A stretch of DNA of 64,000 nucleotides from a virus (taxonomy: Duplodnaviria; Caudoviricetes). Positions 16,901 to 47,348 of this stretch are shown here, piece after piece. Within the stretch, counting starts at the first letter, position 1. Every line of letters begins with the position of its first letter. The translations under genes were made by a program, and so were the position numbers. The notes beneath the pieces were generated by a model. That model worked only from the letters and a program-made list of their open reading frames with translations. It made no database searches and was not told the origin of the DNA. The stretch covers positions 86,264-150,263 of IMG/VR virus record IMGVR_UViG_3300033066_001283; one strand, 5' to 3'.

Positions 16901-16920
16901 CGGTTATATGAAATAGAGGA

Positions 16921-16957
16921 AGAAAATAGGGTGGACCCCCGTGAGAAAGGTCCACCC
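16921..16957 (-). terminator. Intrinsic terminator after major capsid gene
   Basis: Minus strand GGGTGGACCT...GGGTCCACCC hairpin followed by TATTTTCT. Confidence 0.75.
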
Positions 16958-16990
16958 ATGTAGGAGGTAGTACTGTTACTGCTTACCCAA

Positions 16991-18280
16991 TTAGCTGGTA
17001 ACAGTGCGGATTGTAAACAGTGCTTCCTGGTTAACGTCCACTCGAATGTTTCGGGCCACACACATACCCTTACCATTATCTTTAGCAGAGATACCAAGAT
17101 GCTGCTTAGCCTTAAGAGTGGTTGAATCTCTATACCAGTTATCCATCTGATCCATCTGGATTCCACCACGCTGTGCCATGTACAAAGAGTTATCCTTGTC
17201 AATTAGGTAGAGATCGCTAAGAACCTTAGCAGTACCAAAACCTGAACCTGTCCAAGAAACTAGTGCCTTGTTTTCAGCATAAGGAATTGCATAGTATGGA
17301 ACATACTGAACACCAAATGGGAAGTTATGACTCTGATCAAATTGAGGAGGAGTAGTCCAGACTCCAGCACCAAGCTGTCCACCGTGATAGAACTGAGCTC
17401 GAATAATTGGATCCTGTGCGAATACTGGCCACATCAATGGATGAGCTAGGAAGTGAGTAGCATTGTATCGGTTGCCCAATAGAACACCAAACATCTTCAC
17501 CAAGTCATTATAGCTGAAGGTACCATTGGCAATCAAAGTTCCACCAGAAAGACCCTTACCAGTTGTCTGGTAGGTTGTCTGCTGAGAGTTCTCAAGAGAC
17601 ACTTCTGGTTTGGGGAATGTTCGATCAATATCGTTATCGAAGACAACCTGTGCTCGCTGGGTCAAAGCCTGGAAGAGCATTGATTCCTTCTTGAGCTGGA
17701 TTGCCTGACTCATCAACCGCATATTGAGCTTAAGAATCGGCCACATGGACTGATTAATAACCTCTTCAGAAACACCCATCGAGAGACCGATCTTTCTGAT
17801 GCGGATTGATGTCATGTGCTGTTGGAAGCTGAGGCTCTGGTTAGGATACTCTTGGTTCTCAGCAACTTCAAACGCTTGAACGCTTGAAACTGTAGGGAAC
17901 TCAACCAACAGTGGATTGTTGTCAGGTAGATTAACAATATCTGCAACACTGTTCTGTAGGAACAAATTCGGCATGCGAGGCTCCTGAAGAACCTCAGAGA
18001 TGACACGTGGGAAGACGATTGATACGTCAGCTGAAGTTAAAGCTTCCTTAACAGCAAGCCCTGGATTATCAATTACCTGCTCACCAGCAAATGTTTCACC
18101 AGTAAACTGGGAATACACATACTCCTGAGCTTGATTAATCTTCTTCTGGATTTCCGCTGGAGTGTACTCACCCTCACCTTCGCCAATCTTTAGACCATTC
18201 GCTTCTGCAAATGCTTGGATTGAAGGCTCAAGTTCCTTCCTCTTCGCTTCCTGCATTAAACTAAAAATATTCTTTTTCAT
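16991..18280 (-). CDS. Major capsid protein
   Basis: 429 aa, downstream of protease; AFEVAENQEYP, IRKIGLSMGVSEEVI, ATHFLAHPLMW consistent with HK97-fold MCPs; followed by terminator. Confidence 0.8.
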   Translation of the reverse strand: MKKNIFSLMQEAKRKELEPSIQAFAEANGLKIGEGEGEYTPAEIQKKINQAQEYVYSQFTGETFAGEQVIDNPGLAVKEALTSADVSIVFPRVISEVLQEPRMPNLFLQNSVADIVNLPDNNPLLVEFPTVSSVQAFEVAENQEYPNQSLSFQQHMTSIRIRKIGLSMGVSEEVINQSMWPILKLNMRLMSQAIQLKKESMLFQALTQRAQVVFDNDIDRTFPKPEVSLENSQQTTYQTTGKGLSGGTLIANGTFSYNDLVKMFGVLLGNRYNATHFLAHPLMWPVFAQDPIIRAQFYHGGQLGAGVWTTPPQFDQSHNFPFGVQYVPYYAIPYAENKALVSWTGSGFGTAKVLSDLYLIDKDNSLYMAQRGGIQMDQMDNWYRDSTTLKAKQHLGISAKDNGKGMCVARNIRVDVNQEALFTIRTVTS

Positions 18281-18344
18281 TTTCTATTTCTTTCCTTGTT
18301 TTAATTCTTAGCCTGTTGGGGGAAGTTATCCCCCAACCTTATTC

Positions 18345-24190: not shown

Positions 24191-24665
24191 TAATTATCTC
24201 CTTAAATCTACTATATAGATCCATATGATTCACAGAATGCTCCCACAGAATGAGGAACAACTTGGGGTCCCTAGCCTCACCGTATGTCGTCAATAAAGGA
24301 ATATTTTCCTTGTACAGAGAAAGTCTGCCTTGCTCTTTTTCCCATACTTGCCGAGGGACCCCACGCAACTCAGCTGTTTCCCAGCTAGCAGTTTCAATAC
24401 CACCAACGTAAACAAATAGAGGGTGTTCAGGAAGTACAAAGTGAAATAGAGGTAACTCACCATTCTCTAGTTCAAAGTAGTTAATTCTAAACTGTCCCTC
24501 TATAATAACCTTATTTAACCAACTAGGATTTAAATCTGGTAGAGTACTATGAAGAAAATCCCTAACAGATTCTAGCCTAGCAATATGTTCAGTATTGTTA
24601 TATGATTTAAGTAATCTAGTAGCAAACTTTAATAGTCTTATTGCTAATCTATGTATAAACTTCAT
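24171..24665 (-). CDS. Hypothetical protein
   Basis: ORF in morphogenesis operon, overlapping neighbours. Confidence 0.5.
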   Translation of the reverse strand: MKFIHRLAIRLLKFATRLLKSYNNTEHIARLESVRDFLHSTLPDLNPSWLNKVIIEGQFRINYFELENGELPLFHFVLPEHPLFVYVGGIETASWETAELRGVPRQVWEKEQGRLSLYKENIPLLTTYGEARDPKLFLILWEHSVNHMDLYSRFKEIINEQPNS

Positions 24666-25942
24666 GCATTGCCAGTATTAATATTGTCTTTTATTGTAAG
24701 TACTTTCTTAACAAAATCTGCCTTAGGTGGTGAAGGTTTCGCTAGTTTTTGATTTAAGAATATCTTTAATCCATTTGAAAGTAACTGGAGTGTTTCTTCT
24801 TTAAGCTGATTTTCTAATGTTCCACCACTAGACTGAAGCAAATAATCTATCATATAGATGTATTGCTTAGTCATTGCATTCTTTTTAGTGTTCAATAGTT
24901 GAAGTTGTCTATCTTCACCAATCTTCTTAAAGTATCCTTCTTTGTATACTAAATCTGCTTCACTAGTTTGAAGTGCACTAACTATTGATCTTAATAACTG
25001 ACTAGAGAATTCTGTGTAATCTTTATTGATATCTACGTCTCCAGATGAGTTTAGAATACTCTCAAACAGTTCTAGATCTCTCATTGTCTTTGATGAGAAA
25101 CCACCAACTATTGCATTATTATATGTAGAGAATAGTTTAGAATATGCTTTAGATAGGTAATTATTAAATACGTTAGATAGAGATACCTTCAATGTTTTAA
25201 AGTTATCAGTATTTAAAAGAAGTGAAGATTGAAGCAAGGTTCTCATTTGTAAAAGAGCTTTATTAACTTGTACTCCACTATCATAGTTATAACTTAGTGA
25301 TCTATACAAATCACCTGTAAATCGATTAACAAAACTATCACTAACCTTCTGTAGTACGTTCTTCTGAATGGAAGATATTTGGGAGTCTAGTATTCCGATA
25401 TACTGTCTCTCCTTGAATAGTGAATATCTTACTACAGGATTTGAGGTTTCAAAATCTGAATAAAGATTATTGTCAGCAAGTACTTCTCTCCAAATCGTGT
25501 CCAAGTTAAGCTTGGTTAATCCTAATTCTGACTTCAAATCATAGAGATCAGAAACTAATGGGGCCCTAGGATCTGGAATTCTAGCATACACTTCTGATTC
25601 AATAGCTAATATCAATTTGGGGCTATAAACTACAACAGGTGTATAATTAGGATCAGCCAGTTTAAATGCGTCAAAGTAGTTAGCTTTAACCATTTCTAGA
25701 TATGCTGTGAATACTTGATCATCAGATACATGGGAGATTTCTTCAATAGCTTTATCAGCATTCTGCATTGCATTATCAGCTAGTGCAGAGATATCTTCTA
25801 GAAGAACTGGTAAAGGGGTATCTTGTGAGGTGTCTAAAGCAGAATAATCTATAGGGGGTATAGATTCAGGTGAAAGATTGCCTTCTTCAGGGTCAACTAC
25901 TTTCTCAATTTTACGCTGTTCAAAATATTTCCCTAAACTCAT
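24662..25942 (-). CDS. Hypothetical helical protein
   Basis: 426-aa ORF between terminase and portal. Confidence 0.55.
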   Translation of the reverse strand: MSLGKYFEQRKIEKVVDPEEGNLSPESIPPIDYSALDTSQDTPLPVLLEDISALADNAMQNADKAIEEISHVSDDQVFTAYLEMVKANYFDAFKLADPNYTPVVVYSPKLILAIESEVYARIPDPRAPLVSDLYDLKSELGLTKLNLDTIWREVLADNNLYSDFETSNPVVRYSLFKERQYIGILDSQISSIQKNVLQKVSDSFVNRFTGDLYRSLSYNYDSGVQVNKALLQMRTLLQSSLLLNTDNFKTLKVSLSNVFNNYLSKAYSKLFSTYNNAIVGGFSSKTMRDLELFESILNSSGDVDINKDYTEFSSQLLRSIVSALQTSEADLVYKEGYFKKIGEDRQLQLLNTKKNAMTKQYIYMIDYLLQSSGGTLENQLKEETLQLLSNGLKIFLNQKLAKPSPPKADFVKKVLTIKDNINTGNA

Positions 25943-28724: not shown

Positions 28725-29420
28725 TTATCCCCTCAACCATTTGGCAGCTTTTATAAGTCCACTTCCAAGTTTTCCAAATTCTTTAAGTTTTCCATTATTA
28801 ATAGCAATTCTCTCAGCATTACGGATTGAAGCTCCCATATTACCTATCCTTCTAGCCCCCCATCCAACAGCTTTATTAAAGTGATCATTCATTAACCCTT
28901 CTCCCATAGCAAGTTGATAAGAAGTGATACCAGCACCAACAGCAAACGCACCATTTGCAAGAGCAGAACCTATTCTACCATTCTGAAGAGCTGAGTAAGC
29001 ATTTCCAGCAGCATTTACACCTATTAGTCCAGATAAAGCTGCACCACCGTATCTTAGAGAACTATTACCTGCTCCAAATCCGCCTCTTCTTTTAGCTGTA
29101 TTTGCTGCCCCTGCTACCCCCGCTGCTCGTCTTGCAGTCCCTGCTGAAGGTGGTTCCCATCTAACTAGATTAATTCCTCTTTCGCCACGAGCACCGTACT
29201 CTCTCCAATCTACATACCCTCCAGTAGCCACACCATGTTTAGCATTAAATTTTGCTCTATTCAAATTTGCTTGTGCGTGAGTGGATACACCAAATGATAC
29301 TTTGGGAGATATTTGAGAGGGAGGCAATGTCGAATTTAGAGCTGTTCCAAGAAGAGATCGTCTTCCCGGAGTCCCTATTTCTCGCCCGTATCCTAAACTC
29401 CTTTTTCCTAATCTTGCCAT
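28725..29420 (-). CDS. Gly/Ala/Arg-rich protein (possible ejection protein)
   Basis: AGGAG RBS; GA-rich hydrophobic segments. Confidence 0.4.
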   Translation of the reverse strand: MARLGKRSLGYGREIGTPGRRSLLGTALNSTLPPSQISPKVSFGVSTHAQANLNRAKFNAKHGVATGGYVDWREYGARGERGINLVRWEPPSAGTARRAAGVAGAANTAKRRGGFGAGNSSLRYGGAALSGLIGVNAAGNAYSALQNGRIGSALANGAFAVGAGITSYQLAMGEGLMNDHFNKAVGWGARRIGNMGASIRNAERIAINNGKLKEFGKLGSGLIKAAKWLRG

Positions 29421-29449
29421 TTATTTCTCCTCATACTTAAATAGAGTCA

Positions 29450-31695: not shown

Positions 31696-31740
31696 AAGTA
31701 CACCTCTATTGTAGGAAAGTCCTACCTAACAAGTAGAGGT

Positions 31741-34700
31741 CTATTTAGAGACAATAGCCTTAAATACTTCTCCTAACTTAGCAAAAGCCTCTTTTAGAAT
31801 TGGTGAAAGGTGTGATGCTGACTCTACCCCACCAATCAATCTTCCTTCTACTGCTGCCATTCTTTCAGCGTAACCAGCTTGGTATCTTTCTAATCCAGCT
31901 GCAACTATTTTTCTACCATCAATCTCTTCACCACTATCTAGAAAGAGTTTTGCAGGATCCATTCCTGCAGCTACTGCTTCTAATAGTGTTTGACCCACAT
32001 GTTCTACCAGATTATTGACCATTCCTTCATCTAATCCTTGTTCTACCCACATTCTAGCCATCGGCCTTAACTGATCAATGATGGCTGTGCCTTGGTATCT
32101 TCTAATAACTGATTCTGTCTCTTCAGTAATAGCAGTTTCAGTAGAAGTTAATGATCTTCCTGCCTGAACATCCATCCAGAGTCTACTTTTATGCTTATAA
32201 TTAATTCCATCTTTACTAAACTCAAAAAGCTTTTCTTCACGGTGTGCAACCAACCGATTATAGTTCTCAGCAGAAGAATCTTTCATGTAAGCATTGAAAG
32301 CCTGTTTGGCTGATTCTGAAGTGCTTGCAATATCTGCTAAAACATCCATCAAGCCCTTATCTTTAGCTCCACCAATTCCTTGAAAGATAAGATTTTCACT
32401 TGATTCAAATGAGAAAGGTAATCCTTGATCTTTAATTGCACCATTAGTACTTAACCATTTACCTAATTCTTTAGTGAAAGAGTAATGTTCTCCCTCATAC
32501 TCTATTCCAGTTTCCGCTTTAGTGGGCATTTGAAGCGTTCTTCTATGCTTAGCCTCCCAAGATGAGGATACACCAGAAGAGACGCCTAGAAAGCCCTCTG
32601 AGGCGTCAAAAACCCTATTTACAGAAGACTCACCATAGTGTTTATAGATTGAACTGGCCAACTCTGGCTGAAAATCCTCCATATCTGTTAAAACTAATCT
32701 CGCTTTGACGAGTGGGCTATTAGTAAGCTGCTTCATAGTCTTCATAGTAGCACTCTGATTATTGATTGTTAAGTAGTCACCAATAAATGGTTTCTCACCA
32801 TGAAGGGTGCCTAATAATCCAATTCCAAACCTAAGTCCTTCCTTATCTAAATTTCGCATCATTAAGGTTCCAACTAGAACTTTATCTAAATCCTTATCAC
32901 TATTAAGCTCATTAACTGCCCCAAGTGCCAAACTAATGTTCTCATCCCCATAAACTCCATAATTTTGCTGAAGATCTAATAATCGGTAATGCCTAAAACG
33001 CATAACATTAGTCTCAGGTGTAATAGCTAATCCACCATCAATTTGGGCTACAACATCACTAATTCCTATTGCACCTATTGTTCGTTTTACTTCACCCATA
33101 GCCTCTCTATATACATAAGCTCTATCAGCATAGTCAGCCATACCCATAATGTATGCAATGTATTCCCGATCATTAGGATTCGCCTTTAATGTATTTCTTA
33201 GTGTGGCTGGATCAGTCCCCATAGCTGTAGCTGCTTTAATTAAAATATTATTGTGCTCGAAAATGTAACTAGCAGTAATATTTTCACTTTCACCAAACAA
33301 TCTATTTGACTCAAGACCGATGCCTTTCTTAGTGAATAATGAACCAATGATTTCTGGTAGGTACTGTTCCGGTTGATCTTCTACAACTTCCCCAAACTCA
33401 TTTAACCTTCTTCTAATTGGTAGGTAGATGCCGTGTTGTATATTTTTAAATTTTGCATTAGTTGCTTTTCCAGTAGGATCTCTGAAAGTAACTAATTTAC
33501 CTTCTACCCCGTCAATAGTGTGGAGCTCAAGGAAACTGAAACGCTCATTTATGTTCTTTCTAGTTTTAGTAAACTGTTTGTAGAATTCAAGTGCTCGTGC
33601 AGATGCTTCATGAACTGGGGTTCTAACATCTTTAGTATCCCCATAACTTCTTTTGAAAAACATCTCTTCTGGGCGGAAAGCTCCAATCAACTTTCTAGCA
33701 AGTTGTTCCCTTGGAAGAATAGCTTCGTTAGCAATAACAGCTGCCTGTACCTCTAATGGCATTTGCTCAAAATACTTTCGTTGGCTGGTGCTTTTACCAA
33801 ATACCTCATCTAATGCATAATCATGAGCAACCATAGCTTGTAGCTGATGGTACATGGGTGATGAAGCTGTTCCTTTCTGGTTAAGACCAAGATTTTCAAT
33901 AGCCATCGCCACAAGCCCTTTATCACGAAGTGGATCAAATAAAGCAAATGCCCCAGTTAAAGCATTATCATCCTCCATCAATTGTGCATACTTATCTGGG
34001 TTATCTCTTGCTAACCTGGCTAGAAAATCTTTGAAAGCAATTAAGTTGGTAACATTTACCTGGTTAGTTCCGAGGCCTACTACTGTATCTCTAGCTCCAA
34101 TCTCCCACATCTTTGTGAAAGCCTTAACCTGGTTCTCTTTAGTACTGGTAAAATAATATTCCAGATCTTTTGAAATACCTTTAAACACTGGGTGGTTAGG
34201 TCCAACCTCTTTTATTCCCCGAAGAATCTTGTGTGGATCTTGCTTATCATAGTGTATAACGTAGGTTAAGTTTGGTGAGTGTGCTGGGAACTTGGTAACA
34301 AATCCTCCAAGGCTAATATTACCATTACCCACCCTCTGCTTCATCTCTTCAGTTTTTCGCTGAAGCCATGCGTTAAAATTAGCTTCAAATGTTGTAACAG
34401 ATACTTGGTCACCATCAAAGTCACGGTAGAGTAGGTAAGAAGCTTTTGGGTTCATCATAACAACCTCTTGCCCTGTATTCTCATTCACCTGAATCCTAAT
34501 ATGTATCTCAGTTCCAGGTGGAATAGGAAGCTTCTCAGTATCGGCCCAGCTTCTTCCCCTCAGTTTTGGGTCCATAGGGAGCGTAGGATCCCAAAATAGC
34601 TTCATCATTCTAGTGTGAACATTATCAGCACCAAACGCTTTACTTAAAAAGTGTTTAACTGCAGCAGGACCTTCTATTCTACTTTGATCATTTCCTAGCT

Positions 34701-34950
34701 TTGTTAAATTCCTTCCAGCTATATTCCTTAACTGGGCTAGAATCGCAGTGTTATCATCAGCAGAATTAATTCCCGCCTTCAACTGTCTCCAAGCGAAGTC
34801 AAAGCCAGCTGCAAAAATCTCCCGTTGATTCTGAACAAAGGGTATTGCTTCAAATTCGCCCCTTATCTCATCAGCAGAAAATAATCTCCCTGAAGAATCT
34901 TTAAACCATGTATTAGGTTTAAATGTATACCTTCTAGCAATCCAGCTCAT
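31741..34950 (-). CDS. Putative single-subunit two-barrel RNA polymerase (candidate virion RNAP)
   Basis: MMNP...YRDFDGDQV (D177-D181, nt 34408-34422); VGLGTN; GKWLSTNGAIK (res. 830-840); colinear motif similarity to 42506..45082. Confidence 0.65.
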   Translation of the reverse strand: MSWIARRYTFKPNTWFKDSSGRLFSADEIRGEFEAIPFVQNQREIFAAGFDFAWRQLKAGINSADDNTAILAQLRNIAGRNLTKLGNDQSRIEGPAAVKHFLSKAFGADNVHTRMMKLFWDPTLPMDPKLRGRSWADTEKLPIPPGTEIHIRIQVNENTGQEVVMMNPKASYLLYRDFDGDQVSVTTFEANFNAWLQRKTEEMKQRVGNGNISLGGFVTKFPAHSPNLTYVIHYDKQDPHKILRGIKEVGPNHPVFKGISKDLEYYFTSTKENQVKAFTKMWEIGARDTVVGLGTNQVNVTNLIAFKDFLARLARDNPDKYAQLMEDDNALTGAFALFDPLRDKGLVAMAIENLGLNQKGTASSPMYHQLQAMVAHDYALDEVFGKSTSQRKYFEQMPLEVQAAVIANEAILPREQLARKLIGAFRPEEMFFKRSYGDTKDVRTPVHEASARALEFYKQFTKTRKNINERFSFLELHTIDGVEGKLVTFRDPTGKATNAKFKNIQHGIYLPIRRRLNEFGEVVEDQPEQYLPEIIGSLFTKKGIGLESNRLFGESENITASYIFEHNNILIKAATAMGTDPATLRNTLKANPNDREYIAYIMGMADYADRAYVYREAMGEVKRTIGAIGISDVVAQIDGGLAITPETNVMRFRHYRLLDLQQNYGVYGDENISLALGAVNELNSDKDLDKVLVGTLMMRNLDKEGLRFGIGLLGTLHGEKPFIGDYLTINNQSATMKTMKQLTNSPLVKARLVLTDMEDFQPELASSIYKHYGESSVNRVFDASEGFLGVSSGVSSSWEAKHRRTLQMPTKAETGIEYEGEHYSFTKELGKWLSTNGAIKDQGLPFSFESSENLIFQGIGGAKDKGLMDVLADIASTSESAKQAFNAYMKDSSAENYNRLVAHREEKLFEFSKDGINYKHKSRLWMDVQAGRSLTSTETAITEETESVIRRYQGTAIIDQLRPMARMWVEQGLDEGMVNNLVEHVGQTLLEAVAAGMDPAKLFLDSGEEIDGRKIVAAGLERYQAGYAERMAAVEGRLIGGVESASHLSPILKEAFAKLGEVFKAIVSK

Positions 34951-35091
34951 TAGTTAAAATAGAGGCAAAACTAATTCAAGTGTCAAAAATTAGAACACCC
35001 TTCCACCCCAATTAATTTCTCTGTTTCAGAAATAGGTACTGTCAAAATAATAATTTCCTAAAACTCAGAATTAGACCCACCCCCCATTGAA

Positions 35092-36102: not shown

Positions 36103-36275
36103 ATAAAAGAATGTAGATCATCCCCTAAAAATCAAGGCATGTCTGAGTTGGTAATAGACGGGGGCATAGTCGGAATTAGACCCACGAGGGTCGTTTTTAT
36201 GGGCAATCATGCCTATAGGGAATCATCCCAGTGATGCTGTGCTCAACAGCTTTTACCTTTGTAGGAGGTAATATC

Positions 36276-36614
36276 GTGTTTAAAATGACAGTAGCCACTA
36301 TGGCAGCGATCATTCTGCGTAGTAAGGACATGGCAAGTCCTTCCATCGCTCTCCGTTCAGGCGAGCTTGTCCTCATTGATGGAGATATCAATGACGAGAA
36401 CCTTCTCATCGTGGATGCGGTGGACACCTCGTTCTGGGAACAGTGGTTGCCCAGTAATATCCCGTTCCGACATACCTTTGGAACGTTCGAGTCTCAAATG
36501 AAGCGGTACGTGAGCCGCTTCAATCGAACTGGTGTAAAGAATGTCCTCATGGCATTGTCGTATCATGAGGTGCAGTTGAAGAGGAGGTATCCAGAAGAAC
36601 TGTTTAAAGACTGA
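36276..36614 (+). CDS. Early hypothetical protein
   Basis: Start revised to GTG 36276 after TGTAGGAGGTA RBS. Confidence 0.6.
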   Translation: MFKMTVATMAAIILRSKDMASPSIALRSGELVLIDGDINDENLLIVDAVDTSFWEQWLPSNIPFRHTFGTFESQMKRYVSRFNRTGVKNVLMALSYHEVQLKRRYPEELFKD

Positions 36615-36681
36615 GCCGAAAGCCAGGGATTTCTCCCTGGTTATACATAGGGTATGCTCCTATGTACTGATGAGGCAGCAC
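36615..36681 (+). ncRNA. Hammerhead ribozyme, type II (copy 1)
   Basis: GCC-GAAA-[GCCAGGGA tttc TCCCTGGT]-TA-[TACATAGG gtatgct CCTATGTA]-CTGATGA-GGC-AGCA. Full core, stems I-III, loop I TGCT complementary to 3' AGCA; predicted cleavage after A36643. Confidence 0.92.
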
Positions 36682-36718
36682 TCTCACAACGACCTTTACC
36701 TTTGTAGGAGGTAATATT

Positions 36719-37040: not shown

Positions 37041-37097
37041 ATTGCGGTGAACAGTGCCTAACTGTATGGTGTGTAAATCACCTATCTGTAGGAGGTA
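37041..37097 (+). ncRNA. Unidentified conserved intergenic structured motif B (copy 1)
   Basis: TGCGGTGAACAGTGCCTAACTGTATGGTGTGTAAATCACC, near-identical to copy 2. Confidence 0.6.
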
Positions 37098-37105
37098 AGT
37101 AAATC

Positions 37106-37372: not shown

Positions 37373-37440
37373 TGCCGAAAGCCAGGGATTTCTCCCTGGT
37401 TATACATAGGGTATGCTCCTATGTACTGATGAGGCAGCAC
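37373..37440 (+). ncRNA. Hammerhead ribozyme, type II (copy 2)
   Basis: Core identical to copy 1, stem II TGCC/GGCA; begins immediately after stop codon; predicted cleavage after A37402. Confidence 0.92.
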
Positions 37441-37474
37441 TCTCACAACGTTTGTTACCGTAGGAGGTAATATA

Positions 37475-42359: not shown

Positions 42360-42505
42360 GAATGGTCGGTATGACAATCTACATCATCGCGTGTGTAATC
42401 CTCGGATTCATCTGCGCGATATTATTCATCGAGCCCCTGATCAATAAGTATCAGGAGCACAAAGCAGCAAAAGCCTAAGACACTACTGTAGGAGGTAGTA
42501 AAATC

Positions 42506-45082
42506 ATGAAATTCAAATTCACGAAGAAGGTAGATCCTTCATTTGAGTACTTTGACTGGAACGGAATTAAGGTTCCGTACAGTACAAACCAGAAGCTGGT
42601 ATTGGACGGTAAGGAGACAGTTCCTGATAAGCCACATATTAGCTACCTGAAACGTGGCAACATCCAAGCAGCCTGCGTTAGCATGGCTCGTGAAGCCCTT
42701 ATCCTATTGATGGGGGAAATGACATTTCAAGTAAGAGGATGGGATGCTCCAACAGCAGTCTCAGCCTCAGTTCCAGAAGGAGCCATTTATCTTGACAAGC
42801 GTGGCGTTCCAGTAGTCAATGAAGACTGGGGCGATCAGCACGCACTTGATGCTGATGGAGATAGGTGCTCCATCCATCGGCATAAGGATAATCCAGGACA
42901 AGCTGTACTGGTGAAATATCCTGTTACCAGCACCCCAATCACTGGTCTTATCTCCAAAGATGGCATCTTGGAGAAATTCACTGGCCTTACAGTGGAAGAT
43001 AGTCAGAAGCTGATATCTCAGTACAATACTTCAGGTGAAGTGTATGGAATTCCAGGTGATGGAATCAGTGTCGAGTTCGGCAAGAATACTCCTTATCAAG
43101 AGGAGAAGTTCTTCCTGAAGGGGCATACACCAGCACCGGTAGGCCTACTCACCAATGGCTGGAATACTTACGAGCTAGATAAAGCTCAAGCCAAGCGTGG
43201 ATGGTCTAGGAAGATTGACAGCATGTTCAATAACTATCAGAGATATGAAGATATTGAACTGGGCGGTCTGAAGGCTGCGCGTAAGGATGAAGCATCACTA
43301 GCAGACAGTGACATCACTAAGCTTGATTATGCCCTTGCATATCAGCATGCTTGGGCATTGACTGGCACAGGTAGACTTGCAGGTTTAAGTGAGCAGGCTC
43401 TTGAATGGTTCCCAGCTCTTGATGAGAAGGGCCTTAAGCAGGTGCTTACTGACATCAGCAAACTGAATGTGGATTTCAGGAAGAGAGAAGAGAATGATTT
43501 CGAGCGTCGTAAACCTACGCTACGAACATCTCCATTCCTGAAGAAGCTTTTGCCTGCCAGGTACTACTATAAGGGCAAGCTGATTGAGAACCCAGATCAT
43601 ATAACTAAAGGTGGACTGATAAAGTTCTATGAACTAAAGGCTATGCCTGGAGCTCCATCTGCAGTGGTAATCTGGCTTCAGAGACCAGAAGGCATCCCAG
43701 TTGCTCTTACGGACGTGAAACGTAAGGATCACGATCCAGAAGGCTTAGGCTTTGCATACGTTCTTTATCCTGTCTGGGATAACAGAGAACTCTACAGCAA
43801 TGACAAGACTGGCGATCAAAGTCTAATGGTCAGTGCCAAATCATGCTGGGTGCATCCTATCGACCATCTCGAGAAGTGCCTACGTCAGTTCGACAATAAG
43901 GTGATCAATCCTGAAAATGGCGTAGTAGTTTCAAGATTCCCTGAATCCTGGGAAGAGTGGAACTGGCCAAGCAGAGCAGGCAAGATCAAGAGACTGCAGA
44001 AGTTCCTCACTGACTATTGTGGCGAGTATGGTGACGTAGTAAACTGCACCATGCGTAATCGACGTCCTGAGCTACTTGAGCATAATGTCAAGTTCGCAAG
44101 AGCTTCAGCAGTGATCGATTATGGTGGAATAGAACTTACACCAGAGCAAATGTGGAAGATTGCATCTAAAGCGTCTTCTAAGCTACGACTCTGCTTAGGT
44201 GGCAATAAGCAGACCAAGAGTCACGTCAGGAAATACTGTATTGCTGATGAATCTGGTACACCTGCATGGGGAGCGTTTAAGACTAAATGCCATCCAGCTA
44301 GGCAGGGAAAGCAAAGAGCACAGCTTGTGCATGCACTGAAGGAAGTGAGAATGCGTGTGGCAATTGTCAACTGCAACACTCTCACTCAATGCTTCATCAC
44401 ACCCTCTGGTATTGAGAAACAAACCACATCATCAGGATTCCTGCCAATGTGTCTCAACTCACTAGGAGACGCTCAAGCATATCTGGACAGTCTCACTGAT
44501 CTGGAGAAGGCTAATATGCCTGATAACTTCTTGAAGGGAACCGAGTTTACAACTTGGACTGGACAGAAGGTAACAGTCTGGGTAGTAAATCCCAGAAATA
44601 CCGTTCAGGTAGGTAAGCTGATCTCAACACGAGCAGAGAAGTTCGTACCAAGAGTGATTGGGCCTGTAGTTGACCTTGATGAGTTCAATGCCAACATGGA
44701 GAATGAGCAGATCGATTTGGTCATTCCAGTCACTGAACTGATCAATAAGGGTGCACATACCAATATGCTTGAGAAGTGCACCGAACATATGATTCACTTC
44801 AAGTCATATGTGTCTGAAGATCTCACTCAGCTAGGTGATATCACCATTCCAGCAATGGTTGGAGAATTCATCTACTTCAGAAGTGGTGCTCACTCAGAGA
44901 ATACACCACCACGATGGCGAACATGCCGATACAAAGGAATTGATGGGCATGTAATCATTCGACAAATTGAAAAGCTCTATGGCAAAGAATGGGAACAAGA
45001 AGTGAACATTCTTCCTGCACTTGAGCTTCTTGACTCAATGAAGAAGATCATGAAACGTTGTGGCATCAAATTCAACCGCTAG
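42506..45082 (+). CDS. Putative single-subunit two-barrel RNA polymerase (candidate non-virion RNAP)
   Basis: HALDADGDRC (D115-D119, nt 42848-42862); VGLLTN; beta-like GKLISTRAEK (K704..K712, same spacing as GDKxxxRHGNKG), IDLVIP, PAMVGEFIY. Confidence 0.7.
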   Translation: MKFKFTKKVDPSFEYFDWNGIKVPYSTNQKLVLDGKETVPDKPHISYLKRGNIQAACVSMAREALILLMGEMTFQVRGWDAPTAVSASVPEGAIYLDKRGVPVVNEDWGDQHALDADGDRCSIHRHKDNPGQAVLVKYPVTSTPITGLISKDGILEKFTGLTVEDSQKLISQYNTSGEVYGIPGDGISVEFGKNTPYQEEKFFLKGHTPAPVGLLTNGWNTYELDKAQAKRGWSRKIDSMFNNYQRYEDIELGGLKAARKDEASLADSDITKLDYALAYQHAWALTGTGRLAGLSEQALEWFPALDEKGLKQVLTDISKLNVDFRKREENDFERRKPTLRTSPFLKKLLPARYYYKGKLIENPDHITKGGLIKFYELKAMPGAPSAVVIWLQRPEGIPVALTDVKRKDHDPEGLGFAYVLYPVWDNRELYSNDKTGDQSLMVSAKSCWVHPIDHLEKCLRQFDNKVINPENGVVVSRFPESWEEWNWPSRAGKIKRLQKFLTDYCGEYGDVVNCTMRNRRPELLEHNVKFARASAVIDYGGIELTPEQMWKIASKASSKLRLCLGGNKQTKSHVRKYCIADESGTPAWGAFKTKCHPARQGKQRAQLVHALKEVRMRVAIVNCNTLTQCFITPSGIEKQTTSSGFLPMCLNSLGDAQAYLDSLTDLEKANMPDNFLKGTEFTTWTGQKVTVWVVNPRNTVQVGKLISTRAEKFVPRVIGPVVDLDEFNANMENEQIDLVIPVTELINKGAHTNMLEKCTEHMIHFKSYVSEDLTQLGDITIPAMVGEFIYFRSGAHSENTPPRWRTCRYKGIDGHVIIRQIEKLYGKEWEQEVNILPALELLDSMKKIMKRCGIKFNR

Positions 45083-45992: not shown

Positions 45993-46430
45993 GTGAAGAG
46001 GAATGGGGAAGTTCGAAAGGGCTCTCCCAAGCATCAGCAACTCAAACAGCAAACGAAACAGATGCACAAAACGATACCGGTCTAGGATAGGTATCGGGGA
46101 AGGGAAGTGTCTAGGATACAACCCTTCCCAAAAAATTTCTTATCGCTCGAAATCTAATTGCTAGGCAATGAAATTAAGAGTGATGAGGAATGGGAGTACA
46201 GCAAGTGGATGCTCGAAAGACCGTCTGACTTGTGTCTTACTCTCTTACTTTTGCCTGTACAGAGTCGAAGGAGAAATCCGGAGCAAAACAGGCCTGGAAG
46301 CCATCAGAGAAAGCAGGTTAACATAGATCTAGGCGGAGAGACCCCGCTAGGGCAGCAATGCCCTAAAGACGACCACGTGCGTCCCAGGATCCTTAAGATT
46401 TTTACCCCGTCCAACACAAGCAGAGCCATA

Positions 46431-46456
46431 GGGGAGCAATACGCTCCCCACTTTTT
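46431..46456 (+). terminator. Intrinsic terminator
   Basis: GGGGAGC aatac GCTCCCC a CTTTTT. Confidence 0.7.
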
Positions 46457-46459
46457 CGA

Positions 46460-46550
46460 TTTCTACCTTCACTACCTCCTACAACAGTGACACGGTAGGG
46501 GGTCAGGCAACTGGCCCCAACCAATTTCAGGGTGCAATCCCACCTATCGT
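46460..46550 (+). ncRNA. Candidate small RNA presenting an anti-RBS loop
   Basis: TCACT-ACCTCCTACAAC-AGTGA hairpin, then GGGGTCAG gcaa CTGGCCCC and GGG tgcaat CCC. Confidence 0.55.
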
Positions 46551-47048
46551 AGATCCTCTCCCCAAAAGAAGAAACACGCACCCTGATTCAATTTCCGGCC
46601 AGCAATGGACGGAGAGTACTCTAACAGGAAATCCCTGGTATGAACTGTTAGAAGAATAATATCAGGGCAAAGGACCCATGTGATAGAGACCTTGTGGTGA
46701 TGAAATGGGATTAAACCACAAACTTGGCCAAGGTTGAATGGTCTTAACAAGATGCTAAGTCAACAATACGCTCTTGGGATTTAATGTTGATTTCCAACAC
46801 AGCCTGCTGCACTGCAAAGTGTCTCAGGTCCTTGCGGAAGCAGGAACATATGCAAACTCACACTGTGAACTGAGTAAGCGGGCTTCTCTTTTGCGTCGAG
46901 CGAGAGGAAGCTGACTCAACATAGTTGAAGAAGCGAGATGACTAAATCACAGGCTTAAGATCGGTATCCTTTCGGGATGCTTTAGTCAAGAAGAAGTGAC
47001 GAATTATTCTGTCTGAGCGAAGAATCAACTGATGGTTGCGGGATCTAC
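46549..47048 (+). ncRNA. Candidate ~500-nt structured non-coding RNA
   Basis: Closing helix GTAGATCC/GGATCTAC, many nested stems, crossing helices, no credible ORF. Confidence 0.5.
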
Positions 47049-47348
47049 CCTATTTAAATCTCGAATCATTTTTGGCGCCAATACGCCCTTAGTCTGGAAA
47101 TCTGAGGGATCAATCAAACTGGTAATTTCCAACTACTAGGAGTACACAGAATGGTGTGTACTCAGCGCCATCAGAGCAATTGCCGAAGCTCTGGAGTTGA
47201 ACATACGTAATACATGTGCATGTCTAAATACAGGTATGTACTGGGTAGTCAAACCGAGAAAATATTGAGAGGCGTTTTAACCAATAACGTAGTTTCAGTC
47301 ATGACTGAAACTGGATGTGTTCAACTTACCCTATTTCCAATCAAAGCC

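What the first reader, a model, noticed from the sequence alone, without database searches (positions are those of the whole stretch)
16921..16990. Major capsid mRNA 3' UTR carries the same anti-RBS sequence
Seen: on the coding (minus) strand, between the MCP stop and its terminator, lies TACTACCTCCTACA. The plus strand 16959-16972 (TGTAGGAGGTAGTA) is identical over 14 nt to 42487-42500, the RBS of the early RNAP-like gene. No plus-strand start codon follows at RBS distance. A specified 12-mer is expected about 0.01 times in 128 kb of uniform sequence, and here it occurs in two non-coding antisense contexts. Inference: the likely most abundant late transcript, or a 3'-UTR-derived sRNA, feeds back to silence early genes.
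Basis: partly seen in the sequence, partly recalled or inferred. Interest (0 to 1): 0.78.

Follow-up and report, generated by a model that had tools for sequence, protein, structure and literature searches.

The report
Anti-RBS motif before late-gene terminators
In an uncultivated ~150-kb phage, the untranslated tails of the capsid and chaperonin messages carry, just before their terminators, an exposed sequence complementary to the ribosome-binding site shared by early genes; late messages may therefore silence early genes, but this is untested and poorly conserved in relatives.

Summary
TGTAGGAGGTAGTA at 16959-16972 (+) is identical to 42487-42500, the ribosome-binding site (RBS) of an 858-aa gene. 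On the coding (minus) strand it reads UACUACCUCCUACA. There it sits unpaired between the major capsid protein (MCP) stop (16991-16993) and a strong intrinsic terminator (16929-16957).

It is not an isolated coincidence. The core CCUCCUACA recurs 3 nt before the terminator of the phage GroEL gene, outside the window, and in a hairpin loop at 46470-46483. UGUAGGAG(G)UA is the stereotyped RBS of about eight genes of the opposite, probably early, block.

Across five related genomes, CCUCC lies within 35 nt upstream of 5 of 27 sense-strand terminators. Within-window shuffles give 0.37, GGAGG occurs in 0 of 27, and control hairpins give 3 of 123.

At the MCP site itself, however, only 1 of about 16 distinct relatives has CCUCC. 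No regulator-target covariation was found in the one relative that could be tested. No transcript data exist.

Best reading (about 0.4): a C-rich anti-RBS seed embedded in late-mRNA 3' UTRs that pairs in trans with early translation-initiation regions. Rivals are a cis-acting 3'-end element, or no function.

This would be a new variant of a known kind. The scan has noted analogous CCUCC-displaying RNAs in other jumbo phages.

The parts
16991..18280 (-). Major capsid protein gene (429 aa), stop TAA at 16993-16991
   Evidence: ORF list. PF25209 at 29.7 bits, above the 27-bit cut-off. PHROG 3922 major head protein. 70 homologues, most carrying PF25209.
16959..16972 (-). Anti-RBS element UACUACCUCCUACA in the MCP 3' UTR, with core CCUCCUACA
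   Evidence: Unpaired in the MFE fold. Unpaired probability 0.43-0.87. 14/14 complementary to 42487-42500.
16929..16957 (-). Intrinsic terminator hairpin (12 bp, 7 GC, loop 5)
   Evidence: scan and fold. A hairpin plus T-tract at this position is kept in nearly all relatives.
16919..16928 (-). U-rich tail of the terminator (UAUUUUCUUC)
16911..16918 (-). CTCTATTT motif, 10 nt before the ATG (16900) of the next gene. It recurs before late genes and is a candidate late promoter or leader motif that marks the start of the next transcription unit.
   Evidence: nine intergenic sense-strand copies in the minus block, each a few to about 20 nt before an ATG.
42487..42500 (+). RBS region UGUAGGAGGUAGUA of the 858-aa gene (ATG at 42506), the perfect 14-nt complement of the MCP 3'UTR element. 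It lies in a weak hairpin (CACUAC/GUAGUA stem, -5.7 kcal/mol, not better than shuffles).
42506..45082 (+). 858-aa gene, the best predicted target. Function unknown; it carries a DADGD motif but has no family hit.
36260..36273 (+). Early-block RBS UGUAGGAGGUAAUA, 13/14 complementary to the MCP element
36703..36716 (+). Early-block RBS UGUAGGAGGUAAUA (13/14), about 19 nt downstream of a hammerhead-II-like element
37085..37098 (+). Early-block RBS CUGUAGGAGGUAAG (11-nt perfect match UGUAGGAGGUA)
37459..37472 (+). Early-block RBS CGUAGGAGGUAAUA (12/14)
46470..46483 (+). Second in-window anti-RBS copy CACUACCUCCUACA (13/14). It lies in the 12-nt loop of a hairpin inside a 1.2-kb ORF-free region of the plus block.
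   Evidence: Fold z-score -3.85.

Best explanation
The MCP 3' UTR carries a C-rich anti-RBS seed, UACUACCUCCUACA. It is held single-stranded directly 5' of the mRNA's intrinsic terminator.

It belongs to a small set of such elements in this phage. A second copy precedes the GroEL terminator, and a third sits in a hairpin loop at 46470. All share the core CCUCCUACA.

The proposed action is in trans. The regulator would be either the whole late mRNA or a terminator-protected 3' fragment. It would base-pair with the stereotyped translation-initiation regions UGUAGGAG(G)UA of genes in the opposite-strand, putatively early, block. The best match is the 858-aa gene (14 bp). Pairing would occlude the Shine-Dalgarno sequence and lower translation and/or stability of those mRNAs once late transcripts accumulate.

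- **Shown:** the sequence, its position, predicted accessibility, complementarity, recurrence and strand-specific enrichment.
- **Inferred:** that the plus block is early, that these 3' ends are abundant or stable, and that pairing occurs and represses.
For: 1. **Exact complementarity without flanking similarity.** The match is 14 nt.
2. **Seed layout.** The element is unpaired and 1 nt from a 12-bp terminator, as in bacterial 3'UTR-embedded seeds.
3. **A second copy at another terminator.** CUACUCCUCCUACA lies 3 nt before the terminator of the phage GroEL gene (L020:1951-1964, minus strand). That hairpin sequence is different, and the element is again unpaired. These two account for 2 of the 4 sense terminators in the 110-kb late block.
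4. **Over-representation of the 9-mer.** CCTCCTACA occurs 2 times in sense non-coding DNA, or 3 counting the ORF-free region, against 0.01 expected.
5. **Stereotyped targets.** The complement UGUAGGAG(G) is the RBS of about 8 plus-block genes between 36260 and 42500. All matches of 11 nt or more to the MCP seed are in that block.
6. **No plus-strand RBS reading.** Neither the MCP site nor the GroEL site has a start codon after the plus-strand GGAGG.
7. **Clade-level enrichment.** CCUCC lies within 35 nt upstream of 5 of 27 sense intergenic terminators in G000-G004. Within-window shuffles give 0.37, and 0 of 20000 shuffles reach 5. GGAGG occurs in 0 of 27, CCUCCUA in 4 of 27, and control hairpin sites give 3 of 123.
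8. **Retention at an analogous site.** G001, whose GroEL C-terminal part is only 49% identical, keeps GUACCUCCUAC before the terminator that ends its GroEL module, with an unrelated hairpin.
9. **Background control.** Only 4 of 80 unrelated GroEL-bearing viral contigs have CCTCC within 70 nt after the stop; the two I read closely sit in GC-rich stems.
Against: - **No transcript or interaction data exist.** The phage is uncultivated.
- **Poor conservation at the MCP site.** Only 1 of about 16 distinct relatives (53-58% and lower MCP identity) has CCUCC, and there it is UCCUCCCUU directly after the stop. No relatives between 58% and 99% identity exist, and the 99% strains are identical throughout, so they are uninformative.
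- **Absent from more distant genomes.** The two at 43% MCP identity (G003, G004) lack CCUCC before terminators.
- **No covariation.** The G002 homologue of the 858-aa gene has the RBS GAGAGGUAAUA. The G002 CCUCC element matches only 7 nt of other early RBSs, which is chance level.
- **Imperfect specificity.** The MCP seed also matches 10 nt of the RBS of late gene 24662-25942.
- **No sign of an independent sRNA.** No internal promoter motif or obvious processing site would release one.
- **Non-independent RBS copies.** Several early RBS copies are paralogous repeats of leader modules, so '8 targets' is fewer than 8 independent events.
Confidence: 0.4

Rival explanations
1. A cis-acting 3'-end element. 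The pyrimidine-rich CCUCCUA tract before the hairpin would be part of the 3'-end signal of major late transcripts. It might bind a protein, tune termination efficiency, or protect against exonucleases. Its complementarity to early RBSs would then be a by-product of both being built around the SD/anti-SD core.
For: - The motif is tied to terminators rather than to any one gene. It appears at three positionally conserved terminators (after MCP, after the GroEL module, after the ~95-aa gene) in varying combinations across G000-G002.
- Its distance to the hairpin is short, 5-19 nt.
- Relatives show no matching change in early RBSs.
- The weaker third copy, ACUACUCCUUU at genome 81704, matches late RBSs as well as early ones.
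Against: - No known terminator or 3'-end stability element has this sequence; this rests on my own knowledge, not on a test.
- Most terminators in the clade work without it: 22 of 27 lack it.
- The four-base extension UACA beyond CCUCC is shared by all three G000 copies and matches the UGUA extension of early RBSs. A generic pyrimidine tract would not need this.
- The copy at 46470 is in a hairpin loop, not before a terminator.
Confidence: 0.22
2. No function. The 14-mer would be a chance or relic sequence in a fast-evolving 3' UTR, for example a remnant of an RBS-bearing fragment inserted in inverted orientation. The other copies would be coincidental.
For: - The motif is not conserved at the MCP site in about 15 of 16 relatives.
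- It was found by searching for a motif already known to be over-represented as an RBS, so the choice was post hoc.
- Early RBS modules are repeated and could be copied around.
Against: - Expected count of the 9-mer in sense non-coding DNA is 0.01, against 2-3 observed.
- The enrichment is strand-specific: 5 of 27 for CCTCC against 0 of 27 for GGAGG.
- Flanks of the 14-mer show no similarity to any RBS module, so no inserted fragment is visible.
- An analogous CCUCCUAC is kept before the G001 GroEL-module terminator despite 49% GroEL identity.
Confidence: 0.2
3. A general SD sponge or mimic of the 16S rRNA 3' end. Abundant late 3' ends displaying ACCUCCUA, close to the 16S tail ACCUCCUUA, would titrate any strongly SD-led mRNA, host or phage. 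This would shift translation toward other messages rather than addressing specific early genes.
For: - The part conserved across G000-G002 is only CCUCCUA, the SD complement, and not the gene-specific flanks.
- GGAGG-type RBSs followed by a start codon are about 13 in the plus blocks against 5 in the 110-kb late block.
Against: - By pairing energy with the anti-SD, about a quarter of late genes have SDs as strong as those of plus-block genes, so a global sponge would also hit late genes.
- The stoichiometry against all cellular SDs is demanding.
- The host and its SD usage are unknown.
Confidence: 0.12
4. A genuine plus-strand RBS of an unannotated small gene antisense to the MCP 3' end.
For: - The plus strand is a perfect copy of a used RBS.
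- A 53-codon frame is open after it, with CTG at 16973, 5 nt after GGAGG.
Against: - No ATG, GTG or TTG lies at RBS distance.
- The frame lies antisense to a conserved capsid C-terminus inside a 110-kb unidirectional block.
- The GroEL-site copy has no start of any kind.
- No antisense GGAGG in the genome is followed by a start codon and an ORF of 40 aa or more.
Confidence: 0.03

Closest known systems
Bacterial 3'UTR-embedded or 3'UTR-derived regulatory RNAs that share the parental mRNA's terminator (class as reviewed in the sRNA literature; a recent phage-related case is CisR from the prtV 3'UTR acting on the CTXphi cep mRNA, PMC13250501)
   Same: The seed lies single-stranded just upstream of the mRNA's own intrinsic terminator and is complementary to the translation-initiation region of a target encoded elsewhere.
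   Different: Here the parental mRNAs are late genes of a lytic-type phage (capsid, chaperonin) and the targets would be the phage's own early genes. No processed fragment, chaperone dependence or repression has been shown. In the CisR case the regulator is host-encoded.
icaR mRNA of Staphylococcus aureus: a 3'UTR anti-SD motif (UCCCCUG) pairing with an SD (PMC3868564)
   Same: A C-rich anti-SD sequence located in a 3' UTR that blocks ribosome binding by SD pairing.
   Different: icaR pairs with its own 5' UTR. The MCP's own RBS (AAGGAAAG) is not complementary to the element, so the action would have to be intermolecular on other genes.
C-rich-seed sRNAs of low-GC Gram-positive bacteria (RsaE/RoxS; PMC6158497, PMC5419742, PMC8216469)
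   Same: Unpaired C-rich motifs that pair with G-rich SD regions of several targets.
   Different: Those are stand-alone, conserved sRNA genes with several C-rich regions in defined structures. No Rfam family matches here, and the element is a single motif inside an mRNA tail.
Phage antisense regulators of RBSs
   Same: Phage-encoded RNA that occludes the RBS of another phage gene to control timing or lifestyle.
   Different: Those are dedicated small transcripts, mostly cis-antisense or processed from a leader. Here the complement is encoded 25 kb away, on the other strand block, inside the 3' UTR of a structural-gene mRNA.
CCUCC-displaying candidate small RNAs noted by this scan in other jumbo phages (e1-5657770, e1-5656849, e1-5666394, e1-5650741; AI notes, untested here)
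   Same: Large uncultivated phages carrying exposed anti-SD CCUCC in non-coding late RNA.
   Different: Those are stand-alone folded RNA genes conserved among relatives. This one is an unstructured tract in mRNA 3' UTRs with patchy conservation and no sequence homology to them.

Membership tests
3'UTR-embedded/derived regulatory RNA | Lies between the stop codon and the mRNA's own intrinsic terminator | tested here: met
   Stop at 16993-16991, element at 16972-16959, hairpin at 16957-16929 plus U-tract.
3'UTR-embedded/derived regulatory RNA | Seed is single-stranded and accessible | tested here: met
   Unpaired in the MFE fold. Unpaired probability 0.43-0.87, against a transcript mean of 0.41. 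This is an in-silico result only.
3'UTR-embedded/derived regulatory RNA | Seed complementary to the translation-initiation region of a trans-encoded target | tested here: met
   14/14 with 42487-42500 and 11-nt perfect runs with other plus-block RBSs, including 36260 and 37087.
3'UTR-embedded/derived regulatory RNA | Seed conserved more than its flanks among relatives | tested here: not met
   At the MCP site only L024/L025 of about 16 distinct relatives has CCUCC. There is partial support at the GroEL-module terminator, where G000 and G001 share CCUCCUAC.
3'UTR-embedded/derived regulatory RNA | Stable 3' fragment (processing site or internal promoter), or demonstrated regulation by the full mRNA | not testable with these tools
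   No transcriptome is available. No CTCTAYTT promoter-like motif lies inside the MCP 3' end.
icaR-type 3'UTR-5'UTR self-pairing | 3'UTR anti-SD complementary to the SD of the same mRNA | tested here: not met
   The MCP leader reads AACAAGGAAAGAAAUAGAAAAUG and has no complement to CCUCCUACA.
RsaE/RoxS and other Rfam sRNA families | Match to a curated covariance model | tested here: not met
   Rfam at gathering threshold found only two tRNAs in the window.
Cis-antisense phage RNA (sar/OOP type) | Transcribed from the strand opposite its target at the same locus | tested here: not met
   The element and its best target are 25.5 kb apart.
Functional plus-strand RBS | ATG, GTG or TTG 4-12 nt downstream opening a plausible ORF | tested here: not met
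   None present. Only a CTG opens a 53-codon frame antisense to MCP. The same absence holds at the GroEL site.
Intrinsic (Rho-independent) terminator | GC-rich hairpin followed by a U-tract on the transcribed strand, at the end of a gene | tested here: met
   12-bp stem with 7 GC pairs, then UAUUUUCUU. A positional equivalent is seen in nearly all relatives.

The most novel reading that the evidence does not exclude
This phage would use an RNA 'address code' for temporal control. A class of early genes shares the extended RBS UGUAGGAGGUA, partly delivered by ribozyme-processed leaders. The 3' ends of the most strongly needed late messages (capsid, chaperonin), plus a loop in a separate non-coding RNA, carry its complement. 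Accumulating late mRNAs would then themselves shut off early translation, without any dedicated repressor protein or sRNA gene.
Probability: 0.15. Interest if true: 0.8.

Novelty: new variant of a known kind. Interest (0 to 1): 0.55.

Why it matters
How large lytic phages turn early genes off after the switch to late expression is known in detail for only a few model phages. There it relies mostly on proteins (for example T4 RegA/RegB) or cis-antisense transcripts.

Structural-gene mRNAs that double as riboregulators through their 3' UTRs would be a cheap, self-timing mechanism, because the regulator rises automatically with late transcription. It would extend the bacterial concept of 3'UTR-borne sRNAs to phage developmental control.

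The stereotyped early RBS and its three complements give a small, directly testable regulator-target set. If the idea is wrong, the strand-specific CCUCCUA enrichment before terminators in this clade still needs an explanation.

Tried and rejected
- **DNA search of phage records.** The MCP region gave no match.
- **Single-protein search of IMG/VR.** It found no relatives. An alignment-based search was needed and gave 15 loci.
- **GroEL-based sampling of IMG/VR.** It returned mostly unrelated GroEL-bearing contigs. I used them only as a background control.
- **RNAduplex ranking of all TIRs.** Early genes came out on top, but this merely restates the shared motif, and the energies are inflated by long loops. 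I do not count it as independent evidence.
- **'Late genes lack SD' as support for a global sponge.** Not supported: the fraction of genes with anti-SD pairing of -7 kcal/mol or stronger is 0.24 in both blocks.
- **Alternative anti-terminator pairing.** I considered pairing between the motif and the hairpin arms by eye. Only G001 has a GGAGG in the stem, so it is not general, and I rejected it.
- **Similarity of CCTCCTAC to the recurring post-terminator motif CCTCTAYTT.** Noted but judged coincidental. They differ by an insertion, and the two motifs lie on opposite sides of the hairpin.
- **RNAP identity of the 858-aa protein.** No support from Pfam, PHROGs, PDB sequences or BLASTP against the 1069-aa protein.

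Full report
**Context.** The window is the last 64 kb of a 150,263-bp IMG/VR virus record, estimated about 80% complete and 37% GC. A crude ORF map shows three parts:
- one 110-kb minus-strand block (genome 12.5-122.4 kb; window up to about 36,100) holding structural and other large genes;
- a plus-strand block from window 36,231 to the end, with many small ORFs and two tRNAs;
- a mostly plus-strand stretch at the start of the record, interrupted by a 2.4-kb minus segment.

I call these blocks 'late' and 'early' by gene content and layout only.

**The observation.**
- TGTAGGAGGTAGTA occurs at 16959-16972 and 42487-42500 on the plus strand and nowhere else in the record.
- The 429-aa minus-strand ORF 16991-18280 is a capsid protein: PF25209 at 29.7 bits against a 27-bit cut-off, PHROG 3922, and 70 homologues.
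- Its stop is at 16993-16991.
- A 12-bp hairpin at 16957-16929 followed by UAUUUUCUU is a textbook minus-strand terminator.
- On the mRNA the element reads UACUACCUCCUACA. It ends 1 nt before the hairpin and is unpaired in the MFE fold, with unpaired probabilities of 0.43-0.87.
- On the plus strand no ATG, GTG or TTG follows. The only open frame starts at a CTG and is antisense to the capsid C-terminus.
- Flanks of the two 14-mers are unrelated, so this is not a recent duplication of a longer segment.

**What the complement is.** GGAGG followed by a start codon is rare in the late block (5 genes) and common at the start of the plus block. About eight genes between 36,260 and 42,500 share the extended RBS UGUAGGAG(G)UA. 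Some of these RBSs sit behind repeated leader modules:
- two full-length but sub-threshold Hammerhead_II matches, at 27.7 and 26.0 bits against a gathering score of 37;

The eight are therefore not eight independent events.

The 858-aa gene is the only one that matches all 14 nt. Its 'RNAP-like' label found no support in Pfam, PHROGs, PDB sequences or BLASTP against the 1069-aa protein.

**New finding: the element recurs.** I listed every true intergenic region of the late block and every sense-strand hairpin plus T-tract. This gave only four intergenic terminators in 110 kb.
- **MCP and GroEL terminators.** Two of the four carry the same core directly upstream. The MCP site is one. The other follows an 866-aa phage GroEL gene (Cpn60_TCP1, 2e-58, with sub-threshold Hint/LAGLIDADG hits consistent with an intein). 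There CUACUCCUCCUACA lies 3 nt before an unrelated hairpin (L020:1951-1964, minus strand; fold z-score -3.2, motif unpaired).
- **Third terminator (genome 81,704).** It is preceded by a weaker ACUACUCCUUU and has CCUCC in its loop.
- **Third full copy.** CACUACCUCCUACA lies in the 12-nt loop of a hairpin at 46,470-46,483, inside a 1.2-kb ORF-free, GC-richer stretch of the plus block.

The 9-mer CCTCCTACA is expected 0.01 times in sense non-coding DNA and is seen 2-3 times. Neither terminator-proximal copy has a start codon on the other strand.

**Relatives.** MCP homologues fall at 99% identity (three contigs, with an identical UTR, so uninformative) and then at 58% or below. Nothing lies in between.

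*The MCP site.* I read the MCP-downstream region in about 16 distinct relatives. A strong hairpin plus T-tract follows the MCP gene in nearly all of them, so the terminator is positionally conserved. CCUCC before it occurs only in L024/L025 (UAAUCCUCCCUU).

*Whole genomes.* I then pulled four relatives in full (G001-G004) and ran the same terminator scan.
- G001 has GUACCUCCUACUCUCCUC before the terminator that closes its GroEL module, in addition to the MCP-site motif.
- G002 has AGCCUCCUAAG before the terminator after the ~100-aa gene. This site is syntenic with G000's third terminator.
- G003 and G004 (43% MCP identity) have none.

*Pooled statistics.*

| Measure | Result |
|---|---|
| CCTCC in the 35 nt upstream of sense intergenic terminators | 5 of 27 |
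| Mean in shuffles that keep each window's composition | 0.37 (0 of 20,000 reach 5) |
| The other four orderings of C4T1 | 0-1 each |
| GGAGG, AGGAG or TAGGAGG in the same windows | 0 of 27 |
| CCUCCUA in the same windows | 4 of 27 |
| CCTCC at hairpin sites in coding or antisense context | 3 of 123 |
| CCTCC within 70 nt after the stop in unrelated GroEL-bearing viral contigs | 4 of 80 (the two read closely sit in GC-rich stems) |

An exposed CCUCCUA shortly before a terminator is therefore a real, strand-specific but evolutionarily labile feature of the G000/G001/G002 group.

**Tests that did not support specific targeting.**
- Only G002 has a homologue of the 858-aa gene (30% identity). Its RBS is GAGAGGUAAUA, and the G002 CCUCC element matches early RBSs over only 7 nt, which is chance level.
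- The MCP seed also matches 10 nt of the RBS of one late gene, 24,662-25,942.
- SD strength by pairing energy is similar in the two blocks. This weakens a 'global SD sponge that spares late genes' reading.

**Mechanism.** The layout is an accessible C-rich seed, a terminator hairpin and a U-tail. This is the layout of bacterial 3'UTR-embedded regulators and of anti-SD elements such as the icaR 3'UTR (PMC3868564) and the C-rich seeds of RsaE/RoxS (PMC6158497, PMC5419742). Unlike icaR, the MCP's own leader is not complementary, so any action must be intermolecular.

The most coherent model is that late mRNA 3' ends pair with the UGUAGGAGG-type translation-initiation regions of plus-block genes and occlude the SD. 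I put this at about 0.4. The rivals are:
- a cis-acting 3'-end element whose SD complementarity is incidental (about 0.22);
- no function (about 0.2);
- a non-specific SD sponge or 16S-tail mimic (about 0.12);
- a hidden plus-strand gene (about 0.03).

A literature search found 3'UTR-derived sRNAs acting on phage genes (host CisR on CTXphi, PMC13250501). It also found sRNAs mapped in jumbo phages, reported as 5'UTR-derived or intergenic (PMC11512511). It found no case of a structural-gene 3'UTR carrying an anti-RBS for the phage's own early genes. That library is limited to open-access papers.

**Relation to the rest of the scan.** The scan's own notes list CCUCC-displaying candidate RNAs in several other jumbo phages. 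They are analogous, not homologous, and I did not test them. They are leads, not support.

**Verdict.**
- Observation: confirmed, and extended by a second terminator-proximal copy and a clade-level enrichment.
- Interpretation: partly supported. The architecture and recurrence fit it. Conservation at the MCP site and covariation do not, and nothing is known about the transcripts.
- If real, it is a new variant of a known regulatory kind.

Noticed in passing
L020:1919-1964 (genome 56918-56963, about 29.3 kb before the window start), minus strand: The 3' UTR of the phage GroEL gene (866 aa, intein-containing) carries CUACUCCUCCUACA 3 nt before its terminator. This is the same core as the MCP element, with an unrelated hairpin.
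   Followed up: yes
window 16911-16918, 29439-29446, 31731-31738, 34957-34964 (minus strand), plus five more intergenic sites upstream in the genome: The motif CTCTA(T/C)TT recurs on the sense strand in nearly every true intergenic region of the late block, a few to about 20 nt before the ATG and often right after a terminator hairpin. It also follows terminators in relatives. It is a candidate late promoter or leader motif.
   Followed up: partly
window 45993-47213, plus strand: A 1.2-kb stretch with no convincing ORF. GC is 0.41-0.53 against 0.37 for the genome, and there is no Rfam hit. It contains strongly folding hairpins, including the anti-RBS loop at 46470-46483 (z-score -3.85). It is a candidate large non-coding RNA.
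   Followed up: partly
window 36614-36684 and 37373-37443, plus strand: Two full-length but sub-threshold matches to Rfam Hammerhead_II (27.7 and 26.0 bits; gathering score 37). Each ends about 15-20 nt upstream of an early RBS of the UGUAGGAGG type. If active, cleavage would leave early mRNAs starting just before the proposed target site.
   Followed up: partly
window 42506-45082 (+) and 31741-34950 (-): The 858-aa protein has no Pfam, PHROG or PDB-sequence hit and no significant BLASTP similarity to the 1069-aa protein. Only the short DADGD / DFDGD motifs line up. The 'RNAP-like' label is unverified.
   Followed up: partly
window 18315-18337: A 9-bp GC-rich hairpin (GUUGGGGGAUAACUUCCCCCAAC on the mRNA) sits between the 498-aa gene and the MCP gene, with no U-tract on the transcribed strand. 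It may be a processing or stabiliser site rather than a terminator.
   Followed up: no
window 42482-42500, plus strand: The RBS of the 858-aa gene sits in a small hairpin (CACUAC / GUAGUA stem, loop UGUAGG) that half-buries the SD. The fold is weak (-5.7 kcal/mol, not better than shuffles).
   Followed up: partly
G001 (IMGVR_UViG_3300020577_009814) about 28,850-29,050, minus strand: The small ORF between GroEL and the terminator contains a direct repeat of about 65 nt. This is either an assembly artefact or a real duplication.
   Followed up: no
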